NCBI GenBank assembly: GCA_963723415.1 | Contig: CAVRQB010000005.1 | Location: 117,633-181,632 of the forward strand | From: an uncultured beta proteobacterium | GTDB lineage: Bacteria > Pseudomonadota > Gammaproteobacteria > Burkholderiales > Gallionellaceae | Reading direction: 5' to 3' | Length of the DNA stretch: 64,000 nt | Part shown: piece by piece, positions 22,094 through 23,896 of the stretch | Layout: every line of letters starts with the position of its first letter | Position numbering within the stretch: the stretch's first letter is position 1 | Notes under the pieces: model-generated | Databases searched by the model: none | What the model saw: only the letters and a program-made list of their open reading frames with translations | Told to the model about the DNA's origin: nothing | Program-made: the position numbers and the translations under genes

Positions 22094-22234
22094 CTATTCA
22101 TTCAATCCTTTTCCATCGAGAATCTTCGGTATACATTTTTCGACCCTGTACTCCCGGGTTTTGGATTGCCTGGCTCCACCAAAAAACAGCAGGTATGCCC
22201 TTTGCCGACCCGGCGTTAATGCATCAAAGGCGGC
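22094..22234 (-). pseudogene. 3' fragment of a YdeI/DUF1801-family gene split by an IS
   Basis: The minus-strand translation is AAFDALTPGRQRAYLLFFGGARQSKTREYRVEKCIPKILDGKGLNE-stop, which continues 23444..23896 in frame once 22235..23443 is removed. Confidence 0.8.
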
Positions 22235-22236
22235 TT

Positions 22237-22469
22237 GTATGGTTGCGCTGGTGGTATCGGCTTCCTTGTGTAACAGTTAAGAAGCCGGGGTGGAGGGACC
22301 AATGGCGGCATCTGCTCTCCTTACCGAGAGACAAACTCCGAAAGAATCCCCCCACCCACACCATCCAGCGTCGATGAGGAATCTAGCGGCTTTGACCGCC
22401 GATTTGACCGCAAGCTCACGCAGGTGTGTCCACCCCAGCATTGTTAATCTTAACCATGGGAGAGACATC
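22237..22469 (+). ncRNA. Candidate bridge RNA in the IS left arm
   Basis: This is 233 nt of non-coding sequence upstream of the recombinase. GCGGCTTT (22386-22393) equals the reconstructed target GGCGGCTTTCAG. A tandem TTTGACCGC lies at 22391-22399 and 22403-22411. AATCTT and AACCAT (22445-22457) echo the right-end sequence AAACCATAGAATCTT. A circle junction would create TTGACG-N17-TATGGT. Confidence 0.5.
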
Positions 22470-23432
22470 ATGCAAACCCCAACCCAAGCACTTAATATCG
22501 GCGCCGATGTCGCCAAGGACGAAATCGTCGTGGCCTGTTCGGAGGGAAGCTTTCCAGTGCGCAAGCTCGCGAATCAGCGCACGGCGTTGCGGGCCTTTCT
22601 CAAGAGCCTGCCGCCAGGCAGCCGCATCGGCATGGAATCCACCGGTATCTATCACGAATTGTTTGCCAGCCTTGCCCACCAGCTCGGCTTCATCGTCTAT
22701 GTGCTCAATCCCAAGGACGTTCGCCACTATGCAAAGGGCGTCGGGAGGCGTGGCAAGACCGATCGCATAGACGCAGAACTTATCGCTCGAATGGTCGCGC
22801 ACGAACATGTCGATCTGCACCCCTGGGTGCCGCCTACACCGGAGCAACGCGAAATTAACCGATTGCTCAAGCGTCGTGCCAAGCTGAGCTCGTTGCGTCA
22901 GGCACTCGGTATGTCGCTCAAAGGTATGGTTGGATTTTCCACCGACCTCAAGACGTTGAGACAGCGCTTCGATCAGGTCATTGCTCGTATCGACAAGCGC
23001 ATAAAAGAACTGGTCGAGGCAAATCCAGATCGCAAAGAGCATGTCAGGCACTTGCGCACAATCACCGGAGTCGGACCGGTCGTCAGCGCTGCACTGGTCA
23101 ACTCCCTTGAGCGCATGCCCCTGAAGAGCGCAGACGCCTTCGTCGCATTCACCGGCCTGGATCCCCGACCCGATGAATCCGGCCAACACCAAGGAAAACG
23201 GCGTCTGTCCAAGCGTGGCCCATCTGACTTGCGCAGGCTACTCTATTTGGCTGCGATGTCGGCCAAGAAGACAAAAGCCTGGAAACCGATCTTTGAGCAA
23301 TATCGCGCAAAGGGGTTATCCACGACTGCGTGTTTCGTCATTCTGGCTCGGCGCATCGCCAGAACCGCATGGTCGATGTACACTTATAAAACCGAGTTCG
23401 ATCCTGGACGCCTTACAAAAGGCTTGACGTAA
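22470..23432 (+). CDS. IS110-family (DEDD) transposase/recombinase
   Basis: This is the internal start MQTPTQALNIGADVAKDEIVVA of track ORF 22290..23432. It contains MESTGIYH, KTDRIDAELIA and ITGVGPVVSAAL. Confidence 0.9.
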   Translation: MQTPTQALNIGADVAKDEIVVACSEGSFPVRKLANQRTALRAFLKSLPPGSRIGMESTGIYHELFASLAHQLGFIVYVLNPKDVRHYAKGVGRRGKTDRIDAELIARMVAHEHVDLHPWVPPTPEQREINRLLKRRAKLSSLRQALGMSLKGMVGFSTDLKTLRQRFDQVIARIDKRIKELVEANPDRKEHVRHLRTITGVGPVVSAALVNSLERMPLKSADAFVAFTGLDPRPDESGQHQGKRRLSKRGPSDLRRLLYLAAMSAKKTKAWKPIFEQYRAKGLSTTACFVILARRIARTAWSMYTYKTEFDPGRLTKGLT

Positions 23433-23443
23433 ACCATAGAATC

Positions 23444-23896
23444 TTTCAGGGCGCGGCTTTTATCCAGTTTTTTCCGGAATTCTTCTGGAACCGCATATTC
23501 CGCAGTCTTCTTGAAATTCACCTTCAAGCCGGCTTTTTCTGCTGCGATGGCTTCACGGATATAGGCTTTCAGGACGGATGTCATCTTGATGATTTCTCGA
23601 ACATCGGTGAAGCGGATCTGGCGCGCCGACTGCGTATTCTCTCCCGGTTTGATCAGTATGCCCCCGGCATCCTGCAACAAGGCGCCCTTGAAAAACATAA
23701 GCACACAATAGTCTTTAAACGCTCCTATGATGACGATGTTGCTTCCCTGATACGTGTAGCAAGGCTGATTCCATTTCAGTTCTTCAGTCAGCTGACAGTC
23801 AAGGGCGATCTTCCTCAATTTCGCCATTTCTTCCGGCCACTTTTTGCTCTTCTTCAGAAATTCTTCAACCTTGGGATTCATTCCATTTCCAGTCAC
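23444..23896 (-). pseudogene. 5' fragment of the YdeI/DUF1801-family gene split by the IS
   Basis: It reads MTGNGMNPKVEEFLKKSKKWPEEMAKLRKIALDC..FRKKLDKSRALK. The last 19 codons of track ORF 23384..23896 are IS-derived read-through. Confidence 0.8.

What the first reader, a model, noticed from the sequence alone, without database searches (positions are those of the whole stretch)
22094..23896. An IS110-type element splits a YdeI/DUF1801 gene; excision can be reconstructed exactly, and the circle junction would build a near-consensus promoter for a 5' guide RNA
- Deleting 22235-23443 (1209 bp) fuses ..KSRALK to AAFDALTPGRQRAY.. and restores a 594-nt (197-aa) ORF.
- CTT is present at both junctions and once in the reconstructed target (GGCGG-CTT-TCAG), consistent with core-mediated recombination without a target duplication.
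- Joining the right end to the left end gives TTGACG (23424-23429), a 17-nt spacer, then TATGGT (22238-22243). This is the junction-promoter arrangement known for IS110-family circles.
- The 233-nt left arm contains a target-like GCGGCTTT (22386-22393) next to a tandem TTTGACCGC pair.
- Further 3', it contains donor-like AATCTT and AACCAT (22445-22457). This is the same 5'-target-loop, 3'-donor-loop order reported for the IS621 bridge RNA.
Basis: partly seen in the sequence, partly recalled or inferred. Interest (0 to 1): 0.75.

Follow-up and report, generated by a model that had tools for sequence, protein, structure and literature searches.

The report
IS110 element with bridge RNA

Summary
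Window 22235-23443 is a 1,209-bp IS110-group element. It encodes a 320-aa DEDD/Ser recombinase that is 30% identical to IS621. It sits in a DUF1801+OmdA (YdeI) gene, and removing it restores a gap-free 197-aa ORF. Joining the right end to the left end gives TTGACG-17 nt-TATGGT, the same geometry as the IS621 junction promoter.

In about 55 related copies from Gallionellaceae and other MAGs, the left arm has only two strongly variable blocks that track the flanks.
- Block 22301-22309 (AAUGGCGGC) matches each copy's own left flank in sense.
- Block 22338-22344 (CCGAAAG) is the reverse complement of each copy's own right flank.
- No shuffle out of 20,000 reached the observed match, and an unbiased column-by-position scan found the same registers.

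Its "donor-like" 22445-57 varies between copies although the donor ends do not.

The core is CT, not CTT. Transcription and activity of this copy are not tested. Verdict: a new member of a known kind, of modest interest.

The parts
22235..23443 (+). IS110-group insertion sequence, 1,209 bp. The boundaries can slide by up to 2 nt within the shared CTT.
   Evidence: Exact ORF restoration on deletion. The ends are conserved in about 55 relatives: TTGTATGGTT at the left end and TTGACnTrAACCATAGAATC at the right end.
22234..22235 (+). Left copy of the CT core (LT-CT-RD junction).
   Evidence: Relatives that share only CT at both junctions.
23443..23444 (+). Right copy of the CT core (LD-CT-RT junction).
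23424..23429 (+). -35 half (TTGACG) of the promoter that forms only at the RE-LE circle junction. It overlaps the last two tnp codons.
   Evidence: TTGAC is kept in nearly all relatives. The geometry is the same as IS621 TTGCAG-17-TATTAT.
22238..22243 (+). -10 half (TATGGT) of the junction promoter. It is also part of the right donor half-site and of the 7-bp subterminal inverted repeat TATGGTT/AACCATA (23432-23438).
22250..22428 (+). Predicted bridge RNA, about 179 nt. The 5' end is inferred from the -10 position and the 3' end from the last helix; neither end was measured.
   Evidence: Structure model: 95.3% of cells paired against 43-53% in slid controls, and 10 pairs with compensatory changes. 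The single-sequence fold has z = -2.9.
22258..22287 (+). 5' stem-loop.
   Evidence: Helix 1 has 5 pairs with changes on both sides. It is also in the MFE fold.
22288..22357 (+). Target-binding loop module: outer stem GGGUGGAGGGA/UCCCCCCACCC, an internal loop, and an inner hairpin at 22313-22333.
22301..22309 (+). Left target guide AAUGGCGGC. It has the same sense as the left flank AAAGGCGGC (8/9) and ends on core C. The next base, A22310, does not match core T.
   Evidence: Per-position identity with each copy's own left flank is 0.61-1.0 over target positions -8 to 0 and drops to 0.21 and 0.03 just outside. Permutation gave 0 of 20,000. Highest mutual-information signals.
22338..22344 (+). 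Right target guide CCGAAAG, the reverse complement of CTTTCaG in the right flank (6/7, core included).
   Evidence: Complementarity to each copy's own right flank is 0.66-1.0 over target positions +6 to 0 and drops to 0.03 beyond. Permutation gave 0 of 20,000.
22345..22346 (+). Putative handshake guide of the target loop (AA). The first A can pair with donor T7 but not with target G7.
   Evidence: Inferred by analogy with IS621 A81-U82 (PMC11208158). The two positions are nearly invariant in relatives and complementary to the cognate target in only 0.03 and 0.21 of copies.
22358..22427 (+). Donor-binding loop module: outer helices ACACC/GGUGU and GCGU/ACGC, and an inner hairpin at 22386-22399.
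   Evidence: Helices 4-7 are 95-100% paired, with 3 compensatory pairs. The segment is invariant, in parallel with the invariant donor ends.
22376..22383 (+). Left donor guide GAGGAAUC against the right-end sequence ATAGAATC: 5 Watson-Crick pairs, 2 G-T wobbles and 1 mismatch. It ends on core C.
   Evidence: Read directly from the sequence. It has the same position and the same 'C + 2-nt linker + hairpin' layout as IS621 ACAGUAUC-AU. Covariation cannot be tested because the donors do not vary.
22402..22414 (+). Right donor guide AUUUGACCGCAAG. CAAG pairs with CTTG of the left end and G22410 wobbles with T12. AU is inferred to pair with A13-T14, leaving 6 nt looped out.
   Evidence: The motif is shared with the IS621 RDG AUUUGCAAG. 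The looped-out GACC bases vary in relatives while AUUU and GCAAG do not. L028 has G to A at the wobble position.
22415..22416 (+). Putative handshake guide of the donor loop (CU). The C can pair with target G7.
   Evidence: Target position -1 is G in 36 of 38 copies. Analogy with IS621 G166-U167.
22470..23432 (+). Recombinase gene, 320 aa. D13, E56, D98, D101 and S237 align with IS621 D11, E60, D102, D105 and S241. A GGGAGAG ribosome-binding site lies at 22458-22464.
23444..23896 (-). N-terminal part of the interrupted YdeI/DUF1801 gene. It is annotated in NCBI as a 165-aa 'DUF1801 domain-containing protein [Gallionella sp.]', which runs on into the IS.
22094..22234 (-). C-terminal part (OmdA domain and stop codon) of the interrupted YdeI gene.

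Best explanation
This is a structurally intact IS110-group insertion sequence of the bridge-recombinase (IS621) type that integrated into a near-cognate site inside a YdeI gene.

Proposed mechanism:
1. Shown: the element is bounded by a CT core and creates no duplication. Joining its ends creates a sigma-70-like promoter (TTGACG-17-TATGGT) that points into the 235-nt left arm.
2. Inferred: the promoter drives a bridge RNA of about 180 nt, made of a 5' stem-loop, a target-binding loop and a donor-binding loop.
3. Shown by covariation: in the target loop, AAUGGCGGC (22301-09) has the sense of the left half of the target, so it can pair with the bottom strand. [quoted passage not shown] Together they cover about 15 bp around CT.
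4. Inferred from complementarity and from similarity to IS621: in the donor loop, GAGGAAUC and AUUUG...GCAAG read the two element ends around the same CT.
5. Inferred from established IS621 biochemistry and structures: a tetramer of the DEDD/Ser recombinase bound to this RNA exchanges strands at CT. Short handshake bases (AA, CU) pair with the non-cognate partner after the first exchange.

The YdeI site matches the guides at 14 of 16 positions, which is within the range seen for natural insertions.
For: - Protein: Pfam and NCBIfam IS110 hits. 30% identity to IS621 over 315 aa with all five catalytic residues aligned.
- Insertion: exact, gap-free restoration of a 197-aa YdeI ORF.
- Architecture: a 235-nt left arm against 11 nt after the stop codon. 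The junction promoter has the same spacing as IS621, CT-TG-TATxxT with the -35 element 17 nt upstream.
- Guides, permutation: across distinct guide/flank pairs from relatives, the 7 non-core LTG bases match their own left flank at 5.30 positions on average against 3.67 when shuffled (43 pairs). The 5 non-core RTG bases match at 3.75 against 2.91 (32 pairs). Neither was reached in 20,000 shuffles.
- Guides, unbiased scan: among the scan's mutual-information pairs, those with high identity or complementarity all fall on the two diagonals LE 67-75 to target -8..0 (same sense) and LE 104-110 to target +6..0 (complement), with sharp edges.
- Structure: 95.3% of cells paired against 43-53% in slid controls, and 10 compensatory pairs.
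- A metagenome copy with the same LTG sits at CAATGGCAGC (9/10).
Against: - No expression or activity data exist for this element. The transcript ends are predicted only.
- The donor-loop assignment cannot be tested by covariation because the donor ends are invariant in every relative found. The left donor guide matches with only 5 Watson-Crick pairs plus 2 wobbles out of 8.
- The right donor guide needs a 6-nt looped-out segment, against 2 nt in IS621.
- The LTG does not pair with core T (A22310).
- A covariance model built from this family does not find the IS621 bridge RNA. Rfam has no usable model. Homology of the RNA to IS621 therefore rests on architecture, on shared short motifs and on the homologous protein.
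- Several relatives match their flanks poorly (for example L020, L009 on the left side, L035). RNAalifold preferred an alternative long-range pairing of the TBL stem.
Confidence: 0.9

Rival explanations
1. One reading: the target guide is GCGGCUUU at 22386-93 (beside the tandem UUUGACCGC) and the donor guides are AAUCUU/AACCAU at 22445-57.
For: The strings exist. GCGGCTTT equals 8 nt of the reconstructed target, and AATCTT/AACCAT resemble the right end.
Against: - 22386-89 and 22396-99 are invariant in about 55 copies inserted in different targets. Only the hairpin-loop bases 22390-92 vary, and they do not track the flanks.
- 22445-57 varies although the donor ends are constant. It lies outside the conserved helices, next to the ribosome-binding site.
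- The unbiased scan puts all in-register covariation at 22301-09 and 22338-44.
Confidence: 0.02
2. Target choice is made by the protein alone. The conserved left arm serves only as promoter, leader or translational control for the recombinase.
For: The left arm contains the -10 element, the ribosome-binding site and a conserved CCACCCC that could take part in leader structures.
Against: Two short blocks of the left arm change together with the flanks, in the correct sense/antisense register around the core, while recombinases that are 93-97% identical sit in different targets. The homologous IS621 system has been shown experimentally to be RNA-guided (PMC11208160, PMC11208158).
Confidence: 0.03
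3. The copy is a fixed, no longer mobile relic, or its bridge RNA is silent in the integrated state. In that case the junction promoter and guides are historical.
For: - There is only one copy in the 64-kb window.
- No sigma-70-like promoter is found in the integrated left arm.
- IS621 loci express their bridge RNA only weakly, and excision is inefficient (PMC13626964).
Against: The ORF is full length with all catalytic residues. Both ends, the promoter halves and all helices are intact and like those of multi-copy relatives. This reading is compatible with the main explanation rather than opposed to it.
Confidence: 0.15
4. It is an IS1111-group element with a 3' seekRNA.
For: It belongs to the same protein superfamily. 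There is a 7-bp subterminal inverted repeat AACCATA/TATGGTT.
Against: The non-coding right end is only 11 nt, while the left arm is 235 nt. The guides map to the left arm.
Confidence: 0.01

Closest known systems
IS621 of Escherichia coli (IS110 family, IS110 group; bridge recombinase and bridge RNA; PDB 8WT6)
   Same: - Recombinase with DEDD and Ser residues (30% identity; D/E/D/D/S all aligned).
- CT core and no target duplication.
- Donor ...T-CT-TGTAT.
- Promoter split across the RE-LE junction with identical spacing.
- Bridge RNA in the left arm ordered 5' stem-loop, target loop, donor loop.
- LTG in target sense on the 5' side and RTG antisense on the 3' side.
- RDG motif AUUUG..CAAG with a G-T wobble at T12.
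- Two-base handshake positions after each right guide.
   Different: - RNA sequence is otherwise unrelated. A family covariance model gives no hit.
- RTG covaries over 7 nt against 4 nt in IS621, so about 15 bp of target is read.
- LTG stops at core C, and the next base is a conserved A opposite core T.
- There is no linker between the two loop modules (11 nt in IS621).
- The RDG has 6 presumed looped-out bases against 2.
- About 42 nt with a conserved CCACCCC separate the RNA from the start codon, whereas the IS621 RNA abuts its ATG.
- Only one base of the TBL handshake can pair.
- Host is Gallionellaceae. This copy's target is a coding sequence rather than a REP element.
ISCro4 (IS110 family bridge recombinase; PDB 9T56)
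   Same: Second-best solved relative of the recombinase (E 4.6e-27), with the same domain layout.
   Different: Only the protein was compared. Its RNA and ends were not examined here.
IS1111-group elements with a 3' seekRNA (e.g. IS1111, ISPa11, IS4321/IS5075)
   Same: Same recombinase superfamily, RNA-guided target choice and a circular intermediate with a junction promoter.
   Different: Those elements carry the guide RNA in a long right end and have long subterminal inverted repeats. Here the right end is 11 nt and the guides are in the left arm.

Membership tests
IS110 family, IS110 group (bridge-RNA elements) | Recombinase with an N-terminal RuvC-like DEDD domain and a C-terminal Tnp domain carrying the catalytic serine. 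| tested here: met
   PF01548 (E 2.9e-21) and PF02371 (E 3.4e-20). NF033542 at 209 bits against a cut-off of 140. D13, E56, D98, D101 and S237 align with IS621 D11, E60, D102, D105 and S241.
IS110 family, IS110 group (bridge-RNA elements) | Insertion without target-site duplication. A short core (CT) is shared by target and donor and present once at each junction. | tested here: met
   CT(T) at 22234-36 and 23443-45, and once in the restored ORF. Relatives share only CT.
IS110 family, IS110 group (bridge-RNA elements) | Long non-coding left end upstream of the recombinase gene, short right end, and short or no terminal inverted repeats. | tested here: met
   Left end 235 nt. Right end 11 nt after the stop codon. 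Only a 7-bp subterminal repeat.
IS110 family, IS110 group (bridge-RNA elements) | A promoter is reconstituted across the RE-LE junction of the circular form. | tested here: met
   TTGACG-17-TATGGT (9/12) exists only after joining the ends. It is conserved in relatives and has the same geometry as IS621. Promoter activity itself cannot be tested here.
IS110 family, IS110 group (bridge-RNA elements) | The left-end RNA has an internal loop whose 5' strand matches the left target half in sense and whose 3' strand is complementary to the right target half, covarying with insertion sites. | tested here: met
   Permutation tests gave 0 of 20,000 for both guides. Register-exact diagonals with sharp borders. 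Window copy 8/9 and 6/7.
IS110 family, IS110 group (bridge-RNA elements) | A second internal loop matches the element's own ends (donor) around the same core. | tested here: inconclusive
   GAGGAAUC against ATAGAATC gives 5 Watson-Crick pairs and 2 G-T wobbles. GCAAG pairs with CTTGT. The motif and layout resemble the IS621 DBL. Donor ends are invariant in all relatives, so no covariation test is possible.
IS110 family, IS110 group (bridge-RNA elements) | Conserved secondary structure: 5' stem-loop plus two stem/internal-loop/hairpin modules. | tested here: met
   95.3% of cells paired against 43-53% in slid controls. 10 pairs changed on both sides, against 4.0 +/- 1.3 in shuffles.
IS110 family, IS110 group (bridge-RNA elements) | Match to a curated bridge-RNA covariance model. 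| not testable with these tools
   Rfam 15 gives no hit here and none on the IS621 bridge RNA itself. The model built from this family does not reach IS621 (effective sequence number 1.25).
IS110 family, IS110 group (bridge-RNA elements) | The RNA is transcribed, binds the recombinase and directs recombination. | not testable with these tools
   This needs RNA-seq or 5'-RACE and recombination assays.
IS1111 group (3' seekRNA) | Long non-coding right end carrying the guide RNA, and long subterminal inverted repeats. | tested here: not met
   The right end is 11 nt and the guides map to the left end.
YdeI / DUF1801-OmdA proteins (the interrupted host gene) | An N-terminal DUF1801 domain plus a C-terminal OmdA domain in one protein of about 195 aa. 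| tested here: met
   The restored 197-aa ORF hits PF08818 and PF13376. It is 71% identical, without gaps, to intact homologues.

The most novel reading that the evidence does not exclude
Two things in the family are not explained by the IS621 model.

(a) In left arms that are otherwise 85-94% identical, the guide blocks are strongly variable. One MAG (MFD01476.bin.1.209) holds at least 12 copies with at least 5 different guide pairs. About 12 relatives even lack 10 nt of the inner hairpin of the target loop, yet still match their flanks. This could reflect an active route to guide renewal rather than plain mutation and selection. Examples would be gene conversion between copies or templated correction from mismatched targets.

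(b) The 5' strand of the target-loop stem (GGGGUGG, 22287-93) has a second, conserved partner (CCACCCC, 22430-36) just upstream of the ribosome-binding site. The two folds differ by only 1.7 kcal/mol. This could couple bridge-RNA folding to recombinase translation.
Probability: 0.1. Interest if true: 0.5.

Novelty: new member of a known kind. Interest (0 to 1): 0.3.

Why it matters
It adds a compact (1.2 kb, 320 aa) bridge-recombinase orthologue from iron-oxidising Betaproteobacteria. Its guide map is resolved by natural data: a family of about 55 copies acts as a natural guide-swap series that fixes the register (LTG 9 nt, RTG 7 nt, CT core). It also shows tolerated variants, namely a truncated inner hairpin, an LTG that does not read core T, and an enlarged RDG bulge. 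That is useful for annotation and possibly for engineering, but it does not change what is known about IS110 elements. For annotation, the 165-aa 'DUF1801 protein' at this locus is a truncated YdeI gene.

Tried and rejected
- Rfam scan of 21500-24500 at E<=10 gave only chance hits. The same scan on the IS621 bridge RNA also found nothing relevant, so Rfam cannot decide the question.
- A covariance model (R1) built from 27 family members found the window copy (172 bits) but not IS621 or 27 distant IS110 loci, with filters on or off. The family is too narrow for this (effective sequence number 1.25), so the result is uninformative.
- RNAalifold on the full left arm chose a long-range pairing of the TBL stem and missed the 5' stem-loop. 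I therefore tested a manually built IS621-like structure with pair counts.
- Search for a near-identical uninterrupted YdeI gene (an empty site): the best intact homologues are only about 71-73% identical, and the top hit, P0001, is a domain-duplicated protein. The empty site is therefore supported by a gap-free protein alignment, not by an orthologous DNA site.
- A metagenome scan for the window's exact LTG string gave 11 hits, of which only one (L087) is a real family member.
- I tested whether relatives' targets lie in a common gene. ORFs spanning the restored junctions look spurious, so most relatives seem to be intergenic. Only a loose target consensus, GAAnGnCCG-CT-TTnnGGCA, emerges.
- I considered a TT or CTT core and rejected it, because several relatives share only CT.
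Full report
**1. What is in the sequence**

Window 22235-23443 (1,209 bp) carries one long ORF, 22470-23432 on the + strand, 320 aa.
- The ORF hits Pfam DEDD_Tnp_IS110 (E 2.9e-21) and Transposase_20 (E 3.4e-20).
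- It hits NCBIfam NF033542, 'IS110 family RNA-guided transposase', at 209 bits against a cut-off of 140.
- Its best solved relatives are IS621 (8WT6, E 9e-30) and ISCro4 (9T56).
- It is 30% identical to IS621 over 315 residues. D13, E56, D98, D101 and S237 align with IS621 D11, E60, D102, D105 and S241 (residue roles from PMC11208158).

On the minus strand a 170-aa ORF (23384-23896) runs into the element.
- Deleting 22235-23443 gives a 197-aa ORF made of 22094-22234 plus 23444-23896.
- The restored ORF hits DUF1801 and OmdA/YdeI.
- It aligns with 0 gaps to an intact 201-aa homologue at 71% identity, across the junction (ALK|AAFDALTPGRQRAY against ALK|TAFDALTPGRQRAY).
- The truncated ORF is present in public data as a 165-aa 'DUF1801 domain-containing protein [Gallionella sp.]', so the window comes from a Gallionella MAG.
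- No second copy of the element lies in the window.

**2. Ends, core and junction promoter**

CTT occurs at both junctions (22234-36 and 23443-45) and once in the restored gene.

In about 55 related copies, the left end always starts TTGTATGGTT. These copies were fetched with the recombinase from one-genome-per-species contigs, mostly Gallionellaceae and other betaproteobacterial MAGs. Their recombinases are 57-97% identical to the window's and their left arms 80-94% identical. The right end always finishes TTGACnTrAACCATAGAATC.

In L009, L015, L046, L006, L039 and L037 the two junctions share only CT. The core is therefore CT, as in IS621.

Joining the right end to the left end gives TTGACG, then 17 nt, then TATGGT. 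By the criteria of the promoter scan this scores 9/12. The scan finds no such site inside the integrated element.

The IS621 copy I retrieved (L080) has TTGCAG-17-TATTAT with exactly the same layout: core CT, then TG, then the -10 hexamer. In IS621 this junction promoter is experimentally established (PMC11208160).

**3. Where the guides are**

An alignment of the left arms shows high conservation, with the variable positions that track the flanks clustered in two short blocks.
- Block (a), window 22301-22309, lies just 5' of an invariant AUCUGC.
- Block (b), window 22338-22344, lies just 5' of an invariant AAU-CCCCCCACCC.

Block (a) equals each copy's own left flank in sense. Examples are L008 AGTGGCAGC, L033 AAGGGCCGC and L031 AAGTTCCGC (all 9/9), and L023, L011 and L021 (10/10). 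Block (b) is the reverse complement of each copy's own right flank including the core. Examples are L018 CTTCGAAAG (9/9), L009 CCAATAG and L003 CACAAAG (7/7).

Three tests support this.
- Permutation over distinct guide/flank pairs: the 7 non-core LTG bases match at 5.30 positions against 3.67 +/- 0.16 when shuffled. The 5 non-core RTG bases match at 3.75 against 2.91 +/- 0.13. Neither was reached in 20,000 shuffles, and the result also holds with one record per distinct guide.
- Unbiased mutual-information scan of every variable left-arm column against every flank position. The two strongest pairs, and all pairs that combine high mutual information with high identity or complementarity, are in register: LE 73 to -2, 71 to -4, 68 to -7, 69 to -6 (same sense) and LE 104 to +6 (complement). 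The other listed pairs have low identity and low complementarity.
- The full diagonals have sharp edges. Identity is 0.61-1.0 from target -8 to 0 and 0.21 and 0.03 just outside. Complementarity is 0.66-1.0 from +6 to 0 and 0.03 beyond.

The window copy reads AAUGGCGGC against AAAGGCGGC (8/9) and CCGAAAG against CUGAAAG (6/7). A metagenome copy with the same LTG sits at CAATGGCAGC.

**4. Structure**

The two blocks are the two strands of an internal loop. That loop is closed by GGGUGGAGGGA/UCCCCCCACCC and contains an inner hairpin (22313-33). A 5' stem-loop (22258-87) precedes it.

A second module of the same design follows at 22358-22427. It has outer helices ACACC/GGUGU and GCGU/ACGC and an inner hairpin GCGG-CUUUGA-CCGC.

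On 31 diverse sequences this model has 95.3% of cells paired against 43-53% when partners are slid. It has 10 pairs with changes on both sides, against 4.0 +/- 1.3 in shuffles. The single-sequence fold has z = -2.9.

**5. Donor loop**

The second module is invariant, as are the donor ends.
- Its 5' strand GAGGAAUC (22376-83) matches the right end ATAGAATC with 5 Watson-Crick pairs and 2 G-T wobbles. It ends on core C and is followed by a 2-nt linker, like IS621 ACAGUAUC-AU.
- Its 3' strand AUUUGACCGCAAG (22402-14) resembles the IS621 RDG AUUUGCAAG. CAAG pairs with CTTG, and the preceding G wobbles with T12 as G161 does in IS621. L028 carries A at that position.
- The GACC bases, which have no counterpart in IS621, are the only variable ones.
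- The base after each right guide behaves like a handshake guide. C22415 can pair with target position -1, which is G in 36 of 38 copies. A22345 can pair with donor T7 but not with target G (concept from PMC11208158).

These donor-side assignments are inference. No natural variation allows a covariation test.

**6.

GCGGCTTT (22386-93) is the inner hairpin of the donor module. Its stem never changes across copies in different targets, and only the loop bases drift. The 'tandem TTTGACCGC' is the hairpin's 3' half followed by the RDG bulge.

AATCTT/AACCAT (22445-57) lies outside the conserved helices, next to the ribosome-binding site. It varies while the donor ends stay constant.

The general claims stand. 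The specific segments do not.

**7. Comparison with what is known, and novelty**

Every family-defining feature that could be tested was met, except two (see the membership table).
- The donor-loop match is inconclusive.
- The match to a curated covariance model is not testable. Rfam 15 lacks a model that recognises even IS621's RNA. A model built from this narrow family does not reach IS621.

Differences from IS621 are matters of degree.
- A 7-nt RTG. Longer RTGs in some orthologues were already noted in PMC11208160.
- An LTG that stops at core C.
- No inter-module linker.
- A larger RDG bulge.
- A 42-nt spacer to the ATG containing a conserved CCACCCC. This can pair with the TBL stem at a cost of only 1.7 kcal/mol.

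This is a new member of a known kind. Transcription, excision and insertion activity are untested. By analogy with IS621, the integrated copy would express little bridge RNA and excise rarely (PMC13626964).

Noticed in passing
L080 1787-1870 (E. coli O114:H49 chromosome, IS621): A partial IS621 left end stops exactly after the LTG-coding ATCGGGCCT (1850-1858). A complete IS621 starting TGTATTATCC follows directly at 1859. IS621 has therefore inserted into the LTG segment of another copy, as expected if the LTG mimics the target in sense.
   Followed up: partly
L006 about 1168-2858: One family member is inserted into the recombinase gene of another. Its left flank, ...AAGGACGTTCGCCACTATGCAGC, is tnp coding sequence. 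The right flank does not continue that gene, which suggests a later rearrangement.
   Followed up: no
L045 2129-2160: A solo 20-nt right-end fragment (CTGACATAAACCATAGAATC) abuts a full left end. This gives a donor-type RE-LE junction inside a linear contig, with no upstream IS body.
   Followed up: partly
L022, L021 and L025 (the same chromosomal site in three MAGs): L021 and L025 have an LTG, TCAACTGC, that matches their left flank perfectly. L022, in the same site, has LTG GCGTCCGC instead. That string mismatches the flank but equals a string 5-12 nt to the right of the junction.
   Followed up: no
L027, L028, L029, L034, L038 (about 2735-2790): A sub-family has a left end about 27 nt longer (TTGTATGCTTTCTTCGGTGGTCGCGGTTGTTGTGCGACCG...). 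Four of the five sit in the same repeated host sequence (...CCTTTTCGAGG-CT-TGCTCGGCG...). L034 and L038 lack the usual right end.
   Followed up: partly
L019, L036, L018, L026, L016, L030, L031, L004, L006, L047, L041, L002 (second + copy); equivalent to window 22320-22329: About 12 relatives lack 10 nt of the inner hairpin of the target-binding loop (CUGCUCUC-GACAG), yet their guides still match their flanks (for example L031 and L004, 9/10 each). The hairpin seems to be dispensable.
   Followed up: partly
window 22287-22293 and 22430-22436: GGGGUGG, the 5' strand of the TBL stem, can pair with a conserved CCACCCC downstream of the donor loop instead of its local partner. The energies are -75.7 against -77.4 kcal/mol, and RNAalifold preferred the long-range pairing. 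Both strings are nearly invariant, so covariation says nothing.
   Followed up: partly
window 22238-22244 and 23432-23438: A 7-bp subterminal inverted repeat, TATGGTT/AACCATA, flanks the core asymmetrically: 2 nt from it on the left and 4 nt on the right. The left copy coincides with the -10 hexamer.
   Followed up: no
L001-L007, L016, L026, L033, L040, L042, L050 (MAG MFD01476.bin.1.209): One MAG holds at least 12 copies with at least 5 different guide pairs. Three copies lie within 7 kb in L002. The targets share a loose consensus, GAAnGnCCG-CT-TTnnGGCA, and appear to be mostly intergenic, unlike the coding-sequence target in the window.
   Followed up: partly
window 22470-23432: There is a weak sub-threshold NCBIfam hit of residues 160-282 to 'TIGR-Tas system RNA-guided endonuclease' (30 bits, cut-off 100).
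   Followed up: no
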